This document shows positions 11,578 to 15,815 of a DNA stretch of 16,353 nucleotides, in pieces. A program made the position numbers and the translations under genes. Numbering within the stretch: the stretch's first letter is position 1; each line of letters begins with the position of its first letter. Below the pieces are notes generated by a model, which did no database searches, was not told the DNA's origin, and saw only the letters and a program-made list of their open reading frames with translations. Source of the stretch: a virus (lineage: Duplodnaviria > Heunggongvirae > Uroviricota > Caudoviricetes); IMG/VR virus record IMGVR_UViG_2585427750_000025, positions 1 through 16,353 of that record; one strand, 5' to 3'.

Positions 11578-12454
11578 GTTAGCTGATTACAGGCATAACC
11601 CTGTAAAACATCAGGAGGCATCCAGTATGGGGTATGTCTCTATACACCGCCAGTTTATGGACAGCAGGCTCTATAAGGACTCTCAGGCAGTACATCTTTG
11701 GCTTCACTTAATCCTCAAGGCTAATCACGAATCTACTGTCGTCAATACGGATATCGGTCCGATAACTGTTGATCGCGGTCAGATGATAACTGGACGCCCG
11801 TCGCTGGTCAGAGAAACATTCATCCCCGACAACAAAGTTCGGAGCTTATTACGGACTTTTGAGTCGAAAGGGATGCTTAATATTTCCTCGATGGGGAAGA
11901 AATTTAGCCTGTTTACAATCGTTAAATATGACGATTTTCAGGCAAAAAATTGTCCAACGGTTGTCCAACGGTTGTCCAACGCAAACACCAGTAATGGCGC
12001 GGCTCTCAGCGGAGATTGTCCAACGGTTGTCCAACGGTTGTCCATAAACAATAATATAAATAATATCTCTAATACTGACGTATTAGAGAGTGCCACAGCA
12101 GACAAAAAGTCTGACAAGAAAAAACCTTCCGTTAGCTGTCAGGATGTTGTCGATGCTTACCACGAAATCCTTCCTGAAGCGCCAAGAATCCGCGCACTGA
12201 ATGACAAGCGTAAAAACCAGATCCGAACGTTCTGGCGCAAAGCCGGAGTGATAACCCGCCAGCTTGACGGGCATGGGTTCACGATGCAGGACTGGAGAAA
12301 TTATTTGAGCTACGTAGGAGAAAATTGCCGATGGATGTTCGAAGAGCGCCCAAACCATCAACGCGGAACTGTCTGGCACAAAAAGGGATTTGATTTCCTG
12401 CTTAACGATAATACCTACCTGAAAGTTCGTGAGGGTGAACACGATGACCGATAA
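11564..12454 (+). CDS. Replication initiator (O-like), 296 aa, with origin iterons inside the gene; alternative start at 11627
   Basis: Occupies the O position after cII; N-terminal DNA-binding-like domain, low-complexity linker encoded by the iterons, C-terminal domain; stop overlaps the helicase start by 11 nt. Confidence 0.6.
   Translation: MGVVKLADYRHNPVKHQEASSMGYVSIHRQFMDSRLYKDSQAVHLWLHLILKANHESTVVNTDIGPITVDRGQMITGRPSLVRETFIPDNKVRSLLRTFESKGMLNISSMGKKFSLFTIVKYDDFQAKNCPTVVQRLSNANTSNGAALSGDCPTVVQRLSINNNINNISNTDVLESATADKKSDKKKPSVSCQDVVDAYHEILPEAPRIRALNDKRKNQIRTFWRKAGVITRQLDGHGFTMQDWRNYLSYVGENCRWMFEERPNHQRGTVWHKKGFDFLLNDNTYLKVREGEHDDR
11950..12048 (+). repeat. Origin iterons: six copies of TTGTCCAACGG in two triplets (11950-11982 and 12016-12048)
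   Basis: Direct 11-bp repeats (third copy of each set slightly degenerate) separated by about 33 bp, inside the initiator gene; encode the repeated peptide CPTVVQRLS. Confidence 0.7.
12049..12090 (+). promoter_or_regulatory. AT-rich stretch next to the iterons (candidate DNA unwinding element)
   Basis: aaacaataatataaataatatctctaatactgacgtatta immediately right of the iterons, as in lambda ori. Confidence 0.5.
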
Positions 12455-13880
12455 TTTTTATGCGCCGCCCCATAGCATCGAGGCAGAGCAGGCGGTGATT
12501 GGTGGATTGCTTCTGGATGATGACAGCAGTGAGCGCGTCCAGAAAGTTCTGGCGATGCTGAAGCCTGATTCATTTTACAGCCGACCACACAAAATCCTTT
12601 TCGAAGAAATAACCAGAATGCACCGGGAGCAAAAGCCAGTAGATGGCCTGACGCTTTTCGATGAACTGGATCGCAAATCGTTAACGGTGTCTGTTGGCGG
12701 TTTTGCTTATATCGCTGAGATCGCAAAGAACACGCCAAGCGCCGCAAACATCGTTGCCTATGCAATGCAGGTTCGCGAAACCGCAATGGAACGCTACGCC
12801 ATCAACCGCATGACTGAAGCGACGGAATTGCTCTATTCCCGCAACGGAATGACTGCAACGCAGAAGTACGAAGCTATTCAGGCGATTTTCACGCAACTGA
12901 CAGACCATGCAAAAACCGGATCGCGTCGCGGCCTTCGCTCATTTGGTGAGGTAATGGAAGACTGGGTTAGCGACCTTGAGAAGCGATTTGACCCGTCAGG
13001 CGAACAACGAGGAATGAGCACAGGGATCCCATCGCTGGACAGGATGCTGTCACCGAAAGGTCTGGTGAAAGGCTCTCTGTTTGTCATTGGCGCTCGCCCT
13101 AAGATGGGGAAAACGACGCTATACAGCCAGATGGCAATCAACTGCGCAGTGCATGAGAAAAAGCCCGCTCTGATGTTCAGCCTTGAAATGCCCGGTGACC
13201 AGATACTGGAAAAACTGGTAGGACAGAAGTCAGGTGTTAACCCGAATATTTTTTACCTTCCGGCGACAAATGACGCTGATGACGGCTATCAGGGTGATTA
13301 CGATGGTGACTTCAACAGGGCGATCGAAACAGCCAATCGCTTGAGTGAAATCGACATGCTTTACATCGACGACACGCCGGGATTATCTCTGGCTCAAATC
13401 GTCAGCGAAAGCCGTCGAATCAAGCGAGAAAAAGGATGTGTTGGCATGATTCTGGTCGATTACCTGACACTAATGACCGCTGAGAAGGCCGATCGCAACG
13501 ACCTTGCTTACGGCATGATCACCAAAGGACTGAAGAACCTTGCCAAAGAGCTTGATTGCGTTGTTGTGCTTCTGACGCAGCTTAACCGCGCACTGGAAAG
13601 CCGAACCAATAAACGCCCATTACCAAGTGACTCACGAGATACAGGGCAGATTGAACAGGATTGCGATTATTGGGTTGGGATCCATCGTGAAGGCGCTTTT
13701 GATGACAGTGTTCCACCTGGTGAAACCGAACTAATCCTTCGTCTCAATCGTCATGGCAATACCGGCACGGTGTATTGCATTCAGGCAAATGGCGCTATTT
13801 ATGACACAGACCAACAGTCTGCTGAAATGCGCCGACGTGAACGCGAGGAACCGCAGTCCAAGAAGAAAGGAGGATTCTGA
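12444..13880 (+). CDS. DnaB-family replicative DNA helicase (P22 gene 12-like), 478 aa
   Basis: N-terminal DnaB-like domain (HSIEAEQAVIGGLLLD), Walker A GARPKMGKTT, Walker B-like MILVDYLTLM; ATG at 12444 with GAGGGTG RBS. Confidence 0.85.
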   Translation: MTDNFYAPPHSIEAEQAVIGGLLLDDDSSERVQKVLAMLKPDSFYSRPHKILFEEITRMHREQKPVDGLTLFDELDRKSLTVSVGGFAYIAEIAKNTPSAANIVAYAMQVRETAMERYAINRMTEATELLYSRNGMTATQKYEAIQAIFTQLTDHAKTGSRRGLRSFGEVMEDWVSDLEKRFDPSGEQRGMSTGIPSLDRMLSPKGLVKGSLFVIGARPKMGKTTLYSQMAINCAVHEKKPALMFSLEMPGDQILEKLVGQKSGVNPNIFYLPATNDADDGYQGDYDGDFNRAIETANRLSEIDMLYIDDTPGLSLAQIVSESRRIKREKGCVGMILVDYLTLMTAEKADRNDLAYGMITKGLKNLAKELDCVVVLLTQLNRALESRTNKRPLPSDSRDTGQIEQDCDYWVGIHREGAFDDSVPPGETELILRLNRHGNTGTVYCIQANGAIYDTDQQSAEMRRREREEPQSKKKGGF

Positions 13881-13907
13881 TGACCATCTACATCACTGAG
13901 CTTGTAA

Positions 13908-13940
13908 CAGGCCTGCTGGTAATCGCAGGCCTTTTTATTT
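13908..13940 (+). terminator. Rho-independent terminator downstream of the helicase gene (tR2-like position)
   Basis: Perfect 8-bp stem aggcctgc (13909-13916) / gcaggcct (13925-13932), 8-nt loop, followed by TTTTTATTT. Confidence 0.7.
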
Positions 13941-13955
13941 GGGGGAGGGTAAATC

Positions 13956-14162
13956 GTGGTTGAGTTTATGCTCGTCGCACTCAAATTCGTTGGCGTTGGA
14001 TGGATTCTTCTGACGTTTTTTATTTTTCTGCATAGCTACATTCGCCTTGTGAATGACGGTAAAGATCCATGGTATACGTTGTTTGGCGCTGCATTTGTCT
14101 GGGTGATTATCGGTGTTATGCCTGTCGCTGTAGCAAAAATGGCGTGGCGTTTTGTGAGTTGA
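13956..14162 (+). CDS. Small predicted membrane protein, 68 aa (GTG start; alternative ATG at 13968)
   Basis: Two hydrophobic segments; GGAGGG RBS 6 nt upstream of GTG at 13956; first gene after the terminator. Confidence 0.45.
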   Translation: MVEFMLVALKFVGVGWILLTFFIFLHSYIRLVNDGKDPWYTLFGAAFVWVIIGVMPVAVAKMAWRFVS

Positions 14163-14179
14163 ACTGAGGGTAAGTATCG

Positions 14180-14446
14180 ATGGACGAATCAAGAAAGCAG
14201 TTTGAAGAATGGTTTGAAAATTACACCGGATGTGATCCTAAAAATAAAATATACGCCAATATGGTTGAGATGTATTGGCAAGCGTGGCAGGCATCGCGAG
14301 CAGCTATCGAGATTGAGTGTCCTGGAAAAAGAGAGCGTGAGGCATTTTCTACCGATTTCGAGGATGGGGTCACATTTGGTTATAACGACGCAATTAGTGA
14401 ATGCGAAGGACGGATTCGCGCTGCTGGAGTCAAAGTGAAGGGGTGA
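14180..14446 (+). CDS. Hypothetical nin-region protein, paralog A, 88 aa
   Basis: Begins MDESRKQFEE and shares WQASRAAIE and IRAAG motifs with paralog B; GAGGG RBS 9 nt upstream. Confidence 0.5.
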   Translation: MDESRKQFEEWFENYTGCDPKNKIYANMVEMYWQAWQASRAAIEIECPGKREREAFSTDFEDGVTFGYNDAISECEGRIRAAGVKVKG

Positions 14447-14448
14447 GC

Positions 14449-14634
14449 ATGAGTCGACGAAGTAGCTTTTTGGGGTTTGTAATATTCCTGTTCTGCACTG
14501 GTTACATCGTAATCTGGTCAATTTCGAACATTGACCGTGGCGGGGAATATCTCATTGTAATGTTCTTTCCTTTGTTTCTTGGGTGGTACGCCGCAAGGTT
14601 GCTGGAAGAATGGGGTTACAGGCATAAAAAATAA
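14449..14634 (+). CDS. Small predicted membrane protein, 61 aa (internal ATG of the 77-aa track ORF)
   Basis: ATG at 14449, 2 nt after the paralog A stop, preceded by GAAGGGG; two hydrophobic segments and a basic C-terminus. Confidence 0.4.
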   Translation: MSRRSSFLGFVIFLFCTGYIVIWSISNIDRGGEYLIVMFFPLFLGWYAARLLEEWGYRHKK

Positions 14635-14693
14635 AGGAGTGTTCAGTGAAGCAAACCCTTTTTTATTGGATTAAGAGCGAGTGGTAAGTACCG

Positions 14694-14876
14694 ATGGTAA
14701 ATGCATTTATTTGTAGTTTATTTCTTGTCGCGATTTTTCATGGATTCCTTCTGATGATGAGTTTTGTTCTCTGGAATAATGGATATCGCATATTGGGAGT
14801 AGGTTTTGTTTTACGGTTTTCAGTTGTCTGCGCGTTGCTACCGATAATTATGGCGACTATCAAATATTATTGGTAA
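14694..14876 (+). CDS. Small predicted membrane protein, 60 aa
   Basis: Two hydrophobic segments; start lies in the junction motif GGTAAGTACCGATGG also found before paralog A; weak RBS. Confidence 0.35.
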   Translation: MVNAFICSLFLVAIFHGFLLMMSFVLWNNGYRILGVGFVLRFSVVCALLPIIMATIKYYW

Positions 14877-14903
14877 CCCAAAAAATCATCGATGGAGAGT
14901 GAT

Positions 14904-15260
14904 ATGGACGAATCAAGAAAGCAGTTTGAGGAATACGTTGCCAAAAAATTGAGATTACCATTCGAGATGATAACCGAGGCAAGAAATGGTGATAGGTACT
15001 TCGCATTTTCAAGCATGGATATTCGTCACTCCTTAAATGAGTGGTGGACTTTATGGCAGGCATCGCGAGCAGCTATTGAACTGGATATCGACTGGCCAGA
15101 ATCGAATGACGACTTTTGGAAAGATGGTGAAGAAGGTGCTTATGCGATGGGTTATGAGGATGGGCGTGACAAAACGGTAATTGCAGTAATGAAAGCTATC
15201 AGAGCCGCTGGAATTAAAGAGAAGAATTTCGATGAAGCAAACAATCTTCCTCCGAAGTAA
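14904..15260 (+). CDS. Hypothetical nin-region protein, paralog B, 118 aa (start at second ATG)
   Basis: ATG at 14904 preceded by GGAGAG; first 26 nt identical to paralog A; the upstream in-frame ATG at 14892 lacks an RBS. Confidence 0.5.
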   Translation: MDESRKQFEEYVAKKLRLPFEMITEARNGDRYFAFSSMDIRHSLNEWWTLWQASRAAIELDIDWPESNDDFWKDGEEGAYAMGYEDGRDKTVIAVMKAIRAAGIKEKNFDEANNLPPK

Positions 15261-15642
15261 GCAACAACAGCAAGCCGCAATAAATGCCATCCTCGCAACA
15301 CCACTCGATAAAGACAAGCCAGTCACCATCCGCATTACTGACTACAAGCGCAACCTTGACCAGAACGCAAAATTTCACGCGATGCTGGCGGATATCGCTC
15401 GTCAGGTTCAATGGTGCGGCAAATGGTTAAAACCGGAACAATGGAAGGTTTTGTTGATCAGCGGTCATGCAGTGGCAACAAAACAGGAAGCTGATGTTTT
15501 GCCCGGGCTTGAAGGCGAATACGTCAACATTCGCGAAAGTAGCGCGCAGATGAGTGTGAAGCGTATGGCAAGTCTGATTGAGTACACGACAGCATGGGCT
15601 ATTGGTCAGGGTGTCAGATTTACCGACAGGAGGTACGAATGA
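15232..15642 (+). CDS. ninB: NinB (Orf-family recombination mediator), 136 aa
   Basis: Similar to lambda NinB over its length (MKxxxFxxRS ... AINAI ... RNLDQN ... QVxWxGxWL); overlaps paralog B by 29 nt. Confidence 0.8.
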
Positions 15643-15815
15643 GACGACAGCGACGAAGTTTCACCGACATCATCTGCGAAAACTGCAAATACCTTCCAAC
15701 GAAACGCTCCAGAAATAAACGCAAGCCAATCCCAAAAGAATCTGACGTAAAAACCTTCAACTACACGGCTCACCTGTGGGATATCCGGTGGCTAAGACAT
15801 CGTGCGAGGAAATGA
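15639..15815 (+). CDS. ninE: NinE-like small arginine-rich protein, 58 aa
   Basis: ATG at 15639 overlaps the ninB stop (ATGA); product [58 protein letters not shown] resembles the lambda nin-region small basic protein; NinE versus NinD naming is from memory. Confidence 0.55.

What the first reader, a model, noticed from the sequence alone, without database searches (positions are those of the whole stretch)
13956..15260. nin-region cassette: three small two-helix membrane ORFs interleaved with two paralogous soluble genes
Between the post-helicase terminator and ninB lie five ORFs in the pattern membrane (68 aa) - paralog A (88 aa) - membrane (61 aa) - membrane (60 aa) - paralog B (118 aa). 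Small membrane proteins paired with soluble partners in a late-early operon are a layout seen in abortive-infection, exclusion and toxin-antitoxin-like modules, but nothing here matches a family I can name. The nin region is a known variable cargo site.
Basis: partly seen in the sequence, partly recalled or inferred. Interest (0 to 1): 0.6.

Follow-up and report, generated by a model that had tools for sequence, protein, structure and literature searches.

The report
Mosaic cargo genes upstream of ninB
The five small genes are real, but they are two alternative cargo cassettes of a lambda-like prophage joined end to end by recombination, made of already catalogued genes of unknown function, with no sign of being a toxin-antitoxin or defence module.

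Summary
Between terminator tR2 (13909-13932) and ninB (15232-15642) lie three two-helix hydrophobic ORFs of 68, 61 and 60 aa (m1, m2, m3). They are interleaved with two related soluble acidic proteins of 88 and 118 aa (35% identity, E 2e-13).

The interpretation as membrane/soluble pairs is not supported.
- The soluble proteins are two alleles of a widespread mosaic phage family of unknown function (Pfam PF26207 Phage_phiTE_015, phrog_343; Sf6 gp48, 933W L0091).
- m1 is phrog_1165 and stands alone before ninB in HK620.
- m2 and m3 are narrow orphan families that PGAP usually leaves unannotated.
- A 59-nt scar between m2 and m3 holds the ribosome-binding site and first 11 nt of ninB, fused to the 3' half of a tR2-type terminator. 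It shows the window is a head-to-tail fusion of two alternative fillings of this slot (m1-P-m2 and m3-P), both found separately elsewhere.
- In the surveyed loci the genes assort almost freely, and most distant family members have no membrane neighbour.
- There is no PADLOC hit, no internal promoter and no fold match.

The genes are most likely independent, non-essential, N-dependent delayed-early accessory genes. m1 and m2 are clearly under coding constraint; m3 is undecided.

The parts
12429..13880 (+). DnaB-type replicative helicase (context; last replication gene of the pR operon)
   Evidence: 99% identical genes annotated as DnaB-like helicase, PF00772/PF03796
13880..13963 (+). NinA, a 27-aa hydrophobic ORF that reads through tR2. 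Its ATG overlaps the helicase stop (TGATG) and its stop overlaps the m1 start
   Evidence: translation is identical to the annotated HK620 NinA
13909..13942 (+). tR2 intrinsic terminator (stem-loop 13909-13932 plus T-run)
   Evidence: the same sequence is annotated as terminator tR2 in HK620
13956..14162 (+). m1: 68-aa two-helix membrane protein, family phrog_1165, function unknown
   Evidence: PHROG E 1.6e-37 over the full length; hydropathy; constrained against a 55%-identical allele; present in 107 phage records including HK022, HK620 and H-19B; stands alone before ninB in HK620
14169..14183 (+). 15-nt linker GGTAAGTATCGATGG (ribosome-binding site plus start codon of pA), repeated in front of m3
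   Evidence: two copies; none of 200 shuffles gave two
14180..14446 (+). pA: 88-aa acidic soluble protein, PF26207 / phrog_343 allele
   Evidence: PHROG E 5.4e-29; AlphaFold model pLDDT 87, three helices plus a short strand pair
14449..14634 (+). m2: 61-aa two-helix membrane protein, orphan family. An alternative GTG at 14443 overlaps the pA stop as GTGA
   Evidence: dN/dS 0.19 against a 72% homologue; annotated as a CDS in phage vB_EcoP-611R6
14635..14693 (+). Recombination scar: ribosome-binding site and first 11 nt of ninB (GTG at 14646, 13-codon remnant ORF 14646-14687) fused to the 3' half of an alternative tR2-type terminator and the m3 leader
   Evidence: side-by-side sequences with L005, L003 and L002; repeat D3
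14683..14697 (+). Second copy of the 15-nt linker (GGTAAGTACCGATGG), ribosome-binding site plus start of m3
14694..14876 (+). m3: 60-aa two-helix hydrophobic ORF, orphan family; coding status plausible but unproven
   Evidence: intact in all 7 DNA alleles; T2 = 0.54; dN/dS 0.64-0.85; always directly upstream of a P gene
14904..15260 (+). pB: 118-aa acidic soluble protein, PF26207 / phrog_343 allele; its last 29 nt overlap ninB
   Evidence: PHROG E 5.2e-31; 99%-identical P0001 carries PF26207; RefSeq names it 'phiTE_015 family protein'; AlphaFold model pLDDT 73.5
14180..14210 (+). Direct repeat D1 (31 nt, 30/31 identical to 14904-14934): shared 5' end of pA and pB, a mosaic joint
14285..14310 (+). 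Direct repeat D2 (26 nt, 25/26 identical to 15054-15079): the WQASRAAIE core of pA and pB, a mosaic joint
   Evidence: reciprocal hybrids P0024 and P0027 exist
15232..15642 (+). ninB (Orf-family recombination mediator), downstream border of the slot
   Evidence: PF05772

Best explanation
The interval is the hypervariable slot between terminator tR2 and ninB in the early-right (pR) operon of a lambdoid E. coli prophage. In this window it holds two alternative slot fillings joined head to tail.

Filling 1 is m1 - P(88 aa) - m2, as found directly before ninB in phage vB_EcoP-611R6. Filling 2 is m3 - P(118 aa), as found directly after a tR2-type terminator in Gally-like and other prophages. One illegitimate recombination joined codon 4 of ninB to the 3' arm of the second terminator. 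That left a 59-nt scar and produced the alternating membrane/soluble pattern.

The two paralogs are not an in-place duplication. They are two alleles of a mosaic gene family (PF26207 Phage_phiTE_015 / phrog_343; Sf6 gp48, 933W L0091). They share only three near-identical nucleotide islands, which act as recombination joints.

Shown:
- anatomy, homology and the junction;
- near-free assortment of the genes;
- tight packing with overlapping stop and start codons;
- absence of internal promoter-like or terminator-like sites.

Inferred:
- All genes are co-transcribed from pR only when N antiterminates at tR2. They would then be delayed-early products made during lytic growth or induction, not in the repressed lysogen.
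- m1, m2 and probably m3 insert into the inner membrane as N-in/C-in helical hairpins with almost no soluble part.
- pA and pB are small acidic cytoplasmic helical proteins.
- Each is an independent, dispensable accessory gene. My best guess for the hairpins is action on host inner-membrane proteins or on entry of competing DNA during lytic development. My best guess for the P proteins is small binding or inhibitor proteins. Neither guess has been tested.
For: Junction. Window 14635-14693 equals the m2-ninB joint of L005 and L003 up to 'GTGAAGCAAAC', then switches to the sequence that follows the terminator stem upstream of m3 in Gally. Repeat D3 confirms the ninB remnant.

Separate existence of both fillings:
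- helicase-m1-P-m2-ninB (L005, L073, L138 and others);
- helicase-m3-P-ninB (L023, L045, L086, L116, L121);
- m3-P-m2-ninB (Gally);
- m1-ninB (HK620);
- DUF7301-m2-m3-P-ninB.

Frequency. The window-type order occurs in 3 of 80 NinB-anchored viral contigs. Only 2 of 5426 complete E. coli genomes cover at least 80% of it.

Family assignment of the paralogs.

Mosaic alleles. N- and C-terminal halves combine freely with each other and with different neighbours. The reciprocal hybrids P0024 and P0027 exist.

No obligatory membrane partner. In 80 loci with distant P homologues, 57 upstream neighbours have no membrane segment, 14 have one and 9 loci have no upstream ORF within range. The neighbours in Hafnia, Atlantibacter and Erwinia are soluble.

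m1, m2 and m3 are unrelated to one another (hhalign probability below 2%).

Regulation and composition. No plus-strand promoter-like site, and no terminator-like site beyond tR2 and one weak match inside m1, in 13700-15700. GC is 36-45% against about 50% in the flanks. The literature describes nin genes as non-essential and tightly packed with ATGA overlaps (PMC8022706).
Against: - Function is not established for any of the five genes.
- m3 is followed by a P gene in every locus seen. Small membrane ORFs directly upstream of P recur with at least four unrelated families: m1, m3, a 47-aa family in L187/L190/L211/L233, and a 74-aa ORF in L103. Some functional link therefore cannot be excluded.
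- Small two-helix upstream neighbours are more frequent next to P (9 of 80) than next to other genes in the same loci (3 of 174), although 7 of the 9 are m1.
- Promoter absence rests on a simple consensus scan, so expression from the prophage cannot be ruled out.
- Membrane insertion and topology are inferred from hydropathy and charge only.
Confidence: 0.72

Rival explanations
1. The cassette is a functional module in which each small membrane protein works with the adjacent soluble protein. The membrane protein would be a toxin or effector and the P protein its antidote or sensor, giving abortive infection, superinfection exclusion or toxin-antitoxin behaviour.
For: - Alternating layout.
- m3 is always directly upstream of a P gene.
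- P stop and m2 start overlap (GTGA).
- Unrelated two-helix ORFs sit directly upstream of distant P homologues in L103, L187, L190, L211 and L233.
- Small two-helix neighbours are enriched next to P: 9 of 80 against 3 of 174.
Against: - No PADLOC, Pfam or NCBIfam defence or toxin hit.
- m1 occurs alone (HK620). m2 occurs after DUF7301 or directly after a helicase (L002, L007).
- P occurs most often without a membrane neighbour in the diverse sample and as DUF7301-P, ren-P and helicase-P.
- Neighbours and P allele halves assort freely.
- The alternation here comes from a single junction.
- No own promoter, and the position behind tR2 argues against expression in the lysogen.
Confidence: 0.1
2. 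m3, and less likely m2, is not a functional gene. It would be a hydrophobic-looking ORF created by T-rich, low-GC sequence next to a terminator: a neutral or very young proto-gene carried along with the P gene.
For: - m3 has only three protein clusters among 5.8 billion, all at least 80% identical.
- dN/dS is 0.64-0.85. The amino-acid changes are no more conservative than random ones (p 0.09-0.33). Polymorphism shows 8 synonymous against 18 non-synonymous changes.
- GC is 36%.
- PGAP does not call it.
- It starts right after the remnant of a terminator T-run.
Against: - The ORF is intact in all 7 DNA alleles.
- T at the second codon position is 54%, as in the proven m1.
- The ribosome-binding linker and spacing are conserved.
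- It packs tightly between genes in a different context (6 nt after p106 in L009).
- Close alleles of m1 also show no synonymous excess, so the test has little power at this divergence.
- m2 itself is clearly constrained (dN/dS 0.19).
Confidence: 0.2
3. The pattern arose by tandem duplication in place of an ancestral [membrane ORF - P] unit, followed by divergence. The two halves would then be true paralogous units.
For: There are two P genes in one operon, each preceded by a two-helix ORF, and the same 15-nt linker precedes pA and m3.
Against: - m1 and m3 show no detectable relationship.
- pA and pB are 35% identical overall but share 96-97% identical 26-31 nt islands. That fits allele shuffling, not gradual divergence.
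- Both halves exist separately at 98-100% identity in other phages.
- The ninB remnant marks a junction of two pre-existing fillings.
Confidence: 0.03

Closest known systems
Pfam PF26207 Phage_phiTE_015 / PHROG phrog_343 (Shigella phage Sf6 gene 48 protein, phage 933W L0091; RefSeq 'phiTE_015 family protein')
   Same: pA and pB match the family profile over their full length (E 5e-29 and 5e-31). They carry its conserved F-E, W..WQASR and G.K motifs. Like most members seen, they sit in the nin region at or just upstream of ninB.
   Different: Two alleles sit in one operon. This is uncommon but not unique: L001, L004, L061, L110, L111 and L167 have the same order, and L190 has two directly in tandem. 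The family has no known function and no solved or fold-matched structure.
PHROG phrog_1165 (unnamed small membrane protein of HK022, HK620, H-19B, mEp213 and Stx2 phage 86)
   Same: m1 matches over all 68 residues (E 1.6e-37) and occupies the same place right after NinA/tR2.
   Different: None of substance; this is an ordinary member. Function is unknown, and it is unannotated in HK620.
Lambdoid nin-region mosaicism (lambda ren-ninB..., P22 ninA-ninB...; module exchange at short conserved joints)
   Same: - Non-essential, tightly packed genes with overlapping stop and start codons, downstream of tR2.
- Presence/absence variation between phages.
- Short conserved linkers at gene borders.
   Different: This slot is empty in P22 and lambda. 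Here it holds five genes plus a visible illegitimate-junction scar.
Phage morons
   Same: Lower GC than the flanking genes (36-45% against about 50%) and accessory, variable content.
   Different: No own promoter or terminator was detected. The genes ride on the N-antiterminated pR transcript.
Small phage inner-membrane proteins that act during infection (T4 Imm and Sp, P22 SieA) and class II holins
   Same: Small size and predicted inner-membrane location. Two-helix N-in/C-in topology with a basic C-terminus resembles class II holins in shape only.
   Different: No sequence or profile similarity to any of them. The genes are in the early operon, not in a lysis cassette and not in a lysogen-expressed locus. 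No phenotype is known.

Membership tests
PF26207 Phage_phiTE_015 / phrog_343 | Significant full-length match to the family profile | tested here: met
   phrog_343 E 5.4e-29 (pA) and 5.2e-31 (pB). Proteins 99% identical to pB and all 120 listed homologues carry precomputed PF26207. The local Pfam copy lacks this model, so there was no direct Pfam hit.
PF26207 Phage_phiTE_015 / phrog_343 | Conserved motifs (N-terminal SR.QFE, central W..WQASRAA, C-terminal AAG.K.K) | tested here: met
   Invariant or nearly invariant columns in A1 and A2 are present in both pA and pB.
phrog_1165 | Full-length profile match | tested here: met
   m1 residues 1-68 against profile positions 1-68, E 1.6e-37.
NinA (P22/HK620) | 26-27 aa ORF overlapping the helicase stop and the tR2 hairpin | tested here: met
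   Window 13880-13963 translates to the same 27 residues as the annotated HK620 NinA. Note that m1 is not NinA.
Type II toxin-antitoxin module | Conserved two-gene pairing of toxin and antitoxin | tested here: not met
   Genes assort almost freely: m1 alone, m2 after DUF7301 or a helicase, and P mostly without a membrane neighbour.
Type II toxin-antitoxin module | Own autoregulated promoter; recognisable toxin or antitoxin domains | tested here: not met
   No plus-strand promoter-like site in 13700-15700. No Pfam, NCBIfam or PADLOC domain.
Type I toxin-antitoxin (small hydrophobic toxin plus antisense RNA) | Antisense RNA gene with its own promoter overlapping the toxin mRNA | tested here: inconclusive
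   One minus-strand promoter-like site at 14876-14847 opposite m3. One site is fewer than the 3.5 expected by chance. No Rfam match.
Known anti-phage defence / abortive-infection systems (PADLOC-DB) | Profile match to a component of a described system | tested here: not met
   0 families for all five proteins at E up to 1.
Known anti-phage defence / abortive-infection systems (PADLOC-DB) | Expression from the repressed prophage and a protective phenotype | not testable with these tools
   Only inference is available: the position downstream of tR2 without a detected promoter argues against it.
Class II holin | Two transmembrane helices, N-in/C-in, charged C-terminus | tested here: inconclusive
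   Hydropathy and charge distribution are compatible for m1 and m2, but this is a shape resemblance only.
Class II holin | Location in a lysis cassette next to an endolysin; match to a holin family | tested here: not met
   The genes lie in the early operon between the helicase and ninB. No holin Pfam or PHROG hit.
Moron | Autonomous promoter and terminator flanking the inserted gene; deviant base composition | tested here: not met
   Composition is deviant, but no flanking promoter or terminator was found.
Bacterial lipoprotein (considered for m2) | Conserved lipobox [LVI][ASTVI][GAS]C after a signal-peptide-like N-terminus | tested here: not met
   The majority allele has FLSC, but the window has FLFC and the 72% homologue has FLIC. 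Position -1 is not conserved.

The most novel reading that the evidence does not exclude
The tR2-ninB slot of lambdoid phages may be a dedicated hot spot for tiny inner-membrane hairpin proteins. Families seen there are NinA, m1, m2, m3, p106 and a 47-aa family. They would be produced only after N antitermination and act during lytic growth, for example by blocking entry of competing phage DNA or by inhibiting host membrane proteins or membrane-bound defences. PF26207 proteins would be their frequent functional companions. Alternatively, the T-rich sequence next to the terminator may be a cradle where such hydrophobic mini-genes arise de novo, with m3 as a young example.
Probability: 0.12. Interest if true: 0.55.

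Novelty: new member of a known kind. Interest (0 to 1): 0.25.

Why it matters
Mostly as a clean-up. The apparent five-gene system is explained as two cassettes fused at a visible scar, built from families that are already catalogued but uncharacterised.

It has modest practical value.
- m2 and m3 are real or plausible small membrane-protein genes. Standard annotation skips them in most of the 58 complete E. coli genomes that carry the whole m2-scar-m3 block, which include O26 and O103 strains.
- PF26207 has 958 representative clusters at E no higher than 0.001 and is present in 933W, Sf6 and many Stx phages, yet has no function, no fold match and no literature.
- If someone screens early-operon small membrane proteins of Stx and lambdoid phages for toxicity, exclusion or anti-defence activity, this slot is a compact and naturally combinatorial test set.

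Tried and rejected
- **Family searches.** Pfam, NCBIfam and PADLOC scans of all five proteins gave nothing significant. The only sub-threshold hits were a T4SS pilin (E 0.042) and Acyl_transf_3 (E 0.009), both typical of hydrophobic sequence.
- **PDB sequence search.** A profile search with the P family found nothing at E up to 10.
- **Rfam.** No credible RNA family in 13700-15700.
- **Relationship among m1, m2 and m3.** Tested with hhalign and rejected.
- **m1 as NinA.** Considered and rejected. NinA is the 27-aa ORF over tR2.
- **m2 as a lipoprotein.** Rejected, because the lipobox is not conserved.
- **Tandem duplication in place.** Rejected because of the scar, the unrelated m1 and m3, and the separate existence of both halves.
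- **Literature.** Searches for phiTE_015, PF26207, DUF7301, phrog_343 and phrog_1165 found no functional study. Searches on nin-region membrane proteins found nothing specific.
- **Genome-contig scan.** It returned only 7 loci.
- **Polymorphism counts among close alleles.** They had too little power to settle m3; even m1 shows no synonymous excess at that range.
Full report
**Setting.** The window is an E. coli lambdoid prophage next to a chromosomal MFS-transporter gene. The finding lies at the 3' end of the replication module of the early-right operon.
- The DnaB-type helicase gene ends at 13880.
- A 27-aa hydrophobic ORF identical to HK620 NinA (13880-13963) overlaps the helicase stop. It reads through the tR2 hairpin at 13909-13932.
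- ninB begins at 15232.

The five ORFs have the stated coordinates and lengths.
- m1 (68 aa), m2 (61 aa) and m3 (60 aa) each have two hydrophobic stretches, with 19-residue Kyte-Doolittle maxima of 2.27-2.38.
- Their loops are short and their ends basic, which fits N-in/C-in hairpins. This topology is an inference.
- pA (88 aa) and pB (118 aa) are acidic (net charge -5 and -7). They are homologous at 35% identity, E 2e-13.
- Every ORF has a plausible Shine-Dalgarno sequence, and the genes are packed with overlaps. These are TGATG between helicase and NinA, an 8-nt overlap between NinA and m1, GTGA between pA and m2 if the GTG at 14443 is the start, and 29 nt between pB and ninB. The literature describes this packing as typical of nin regions (PMC8022706).

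**Are the small ORFs genes?**
- m1 differs at 71 nucleotides from a roughly 57%-identical allele.
- m2 differs at 46 nucleotides from a 72%-identical homologue, with dN/dS 0.19 at dS about 1.
- In 20,000 simulations with the same number of random substitutions, over 80% introduced a stop. None gave as few or as conservative amino-acid changes as observed. Both are therefore under coding constraint.
- m3 has only three protein clusters, at 80-98% identity. Its dN/dS is 0.64-0.85 and the simulation p-values are 0.09-0.33. Counts across seven DNA alleles give 8 synonymous and 18 non-synonymous changes. That cannot be told from neutrality.
- Close alleles of the proven m1 show no synonymous excess either, so the test is weak at this range.
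- In favour of m3: the ORF is intact in all alleles, T occupies 54% of second codon positions as in m1, the ribosome-binding linker is conserved, and it packs tightly in a second context (L009).
- I treat m3 as plausible but unproven.

**What the genes are.**
- pA and pB match phrog_343 (E 5e-29 and 5e-31). Their near-identical relatives carry Pfam PF26207 Phage_phiTE_015, and RefSeq calls pB a 'phiTE_015 family protein'.
- The family has 958 representatives (one per cluster at 50% identity) at E no higher than 0.001. It includes Sf6 gene 48, 933W L0091 and many Stx-phage ORFs, all labelled hypothetical.
- m1 is phrog_1165. It occurs in 107 phage records, including HK022, HK620 (unannotated there), H-19B and mEp213.
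- m2 and m3 match no Pfam, NCBIfam or PHROG family. They have only 4 and 3 clusters among 5.8 billion proteins.
- PGAP leaves m2 and m3 unannotated in most of the 58 complete E. coli genomes that carry the whole 461-nt block.
- m1, m2 and m3 are not related to one another.
- None of the five hits PADLOC.

**Structure.**
- AlphaFold gives pA a confident model (pLDDT 87) of three helices, 3-16, 23-42 and 61-81, with a short strand pair.
- The pB model is similar but less confident (pLDDT 73.5).
- The family profile finds no PDB sequence.

**How the layout arose.** The 59 nt between m2 and m3 settle this.
- In phages vB_EcoP-611R6 and Gally, m2 is followed by '...TAAAGGAGTGTTCAGTGAAGCAAACAAT...', which is the ribosome-binding site and GTG start of ninB.
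- In the window the same sequence runs through 'GTGAAGCAAAC'. It then switches to 'CCTTTTTTATTGGATTAAGAGCGAGTGGTAAGTACCGATG'.
- In Gally that second sequence is the 3' arm and T-run of a tR2-type terminator plus the m3 leader, lying right after the helicase gene.
- The window is therefore filling 1 (m1-P-m2, as in 611R6) fused to filling 2 (m3-P, as in L023, L045, L086, L116 and L121). The junction has about one nucleotide of microhomology and leaves a 13-codon ninB remnant (14646-14687).
- The same junction is shared by all loci with m2-m3, including those where DUF7301 replaces m1-P. It looks like a single historical event.

**The paralogs are shuffled alleles.** pA and pB share only three near-identical nucleotide islands:
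- 31 nt at their 5' ends;
- 26 nt at the WQASRAAIE core;
- 15 nt at the ninB start and its remnant.

The family alignment shows N- and C-terminal halves recombined in many combinations, including both reciprocal pA/pB hybrids, P0024 and P0027. A 15-nt linker, GGTAAGTAYCGATGG, precedes both pA and m3.

**Is there functional pairing?** I surveyed about 270 loci:
- 80 viral contigs anchored on pB-like proteins;
- 80 anchored on this ninB allele;
- 80 anchored on distant P homologues;
- assorted genome and metagenome contigs.

Slot contents range widely: nothing (P22), m1 alone, m1-P (the commonest order), DUF7301-P, p106-P, ren-P, m3-P, m1-P-m2, m3-P-m2, DUF7301-m2-m3-P, m1-p106-m3-P(-p54), and the window order. 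The window order occurs in 3 of 80 NinB-anchored contigs. Only 2 of 5426 complete E. coli genomes cover at least 80% of it.

The only invariant adjacency is m3 followed by P. Yet m3 is joined to at least four different P N-terminal variants, and m1 is joined to the same set.

In the diverse sample, the upstream neighbour of P breaks down as follows:
- 57 of 80 have no membrane segment;
- 9 of 80 are small two-helix ORFs, of which 7 are m1;
- 5 of 80 have one predicted membrane segment (4 small, 1 large);
- 9 of 80 have no upstream ORF within range.

The matched background is 3 of 174 for small two-helix neighbours and about 8% for any small membrane neighbour.

So P does not need a membrane partner. 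There is a mild enrichment, and small membrane families recur in this slot (NinA, m1, m2, m3, p106, a 47-aa family). I record that as an open point.

**Regulation.**
- No plus-strand promoter-like site and no convincing terminator lie inside the interval.
- GC drops to 36-45% from about 50% in the flanks.
- By inference from established lambda biology, the genes are read only by N-modified polymerase passing tR2. They would be delayed-early products.
- That argues against a lysogen-expressed defence role but leaves a role during lytic growth open.

**Verdict.**
- The 'paired module' reading is not supported; the 'variable cargo' reading is.
- The best explanation is a fusion of two mosaic cassettes of independent, dispensable accessory genes of unknown function.
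- Novelty is low. All parts belong to known kinds: two catalogued families and two under-annotated orphan mini-proteins.
- The residual interest lies in the concentration of tiny membrane proteins in this slot and in the complete lack of functional data for PF26207.

Noticed in passing
window 13880-13963: A 27-aa hydrophobic ORF identical to HK620/P22-type NinA is translated across the tR2 hairpin. Its start overlaps the helicase stop and its stop overlaps the m1 start. It is a fourth tiny hydrophobic ORF that the finding did not list.
   Followed up: partly
window 14635-14693: Recombination scar: the ninB ribosome-binding site and first 11 nt (a 13-codon remnant ORF, VKQTLFYWIKSEW) are fused to the 3' arm and T-run of an alternative tR2-type terminator. 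The same junction occurs in all loci that carry m2 next to m3.
   Followed up: yes
window 14169-14183 and 14683-14697: The 15-nt linker GGTAAGTAYCGATGG (ribosome-binding site plus ATG) occurs in front of two unrelated genes, pA and m3. None of 200 shuffles gave two copies. It is probably a module joint of the kind proposed for lambdoid mosaicism.
   Followed up: partly
window 14180-14210 / 14904-14934 and 14285-14310 / 15054-15079: pA and pB are 35% identical as proteins but share 96-97% identical nucleotide islands of 31 and 26 nt. Both reciprocal hybrids (P0024, P0027) exist in databases, so recombination between the two copies would delete or reshuffle m2 and m3.
   Followed up: partly
L187 2365-2508, L190 2365-2508, L211, L233; L103 2266-2490: Other unrelated small two-helix ORFs lie directly upstream of distant PF26207 genes, sometimes overlapping them. 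One is a 47-aa family (MSIIMLVFIGLCF...KEEKRRG) and one is a 74-aa ORF. Most gene families seen in the tR2-ninB slot are tiny membrane proteins, against a background of about 8%.
   Followed up: partly
L190 2501-2905 and 2898-3128: Two PF26207 genes lie directly in tandem, with no membrane ORF between them, in a contig that also carries DUF7301, DUF551 and ninB.
   Followed up: no
proteins P0070, P0133, P0138, P0156: Some PF26207 members carry an N-terminal extension of about 35 aa with CxxC...CDC spacing (MSKCQKCNNTGMCDSGG...IECDC), reminiscent of a zinc ribbon. Others carry a different 36-aa extension.
   Followed up: no
L002 (E. coli O103 ML775) 1807-2267 and many other RefSeq genomes: PGAP annotates nothing over the 461-nt m2-scar-m3 block in most of the 58 complete E. 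coli genomes that carry it whole (214 genomes carry at least part). Some phage submitters and metagenome gene callers do call the two ORFs.
   Followed up: yes
L009-L018 3674-3994: A 106-aa protein (p106) with an N-terminal membrane helix and a soluble domain is another frequent occupant of the slot, between m1 and m3. It has no Pfam family.
   Followed up: no
window 14876-14847, minus strand: A single promoter-like site (TTACCA, 18-nt spacer, CATAAT) points antisense into m3. One site is fewer than the 3.5 expected by chance, so it is probably meaningless.
   Followed up: no
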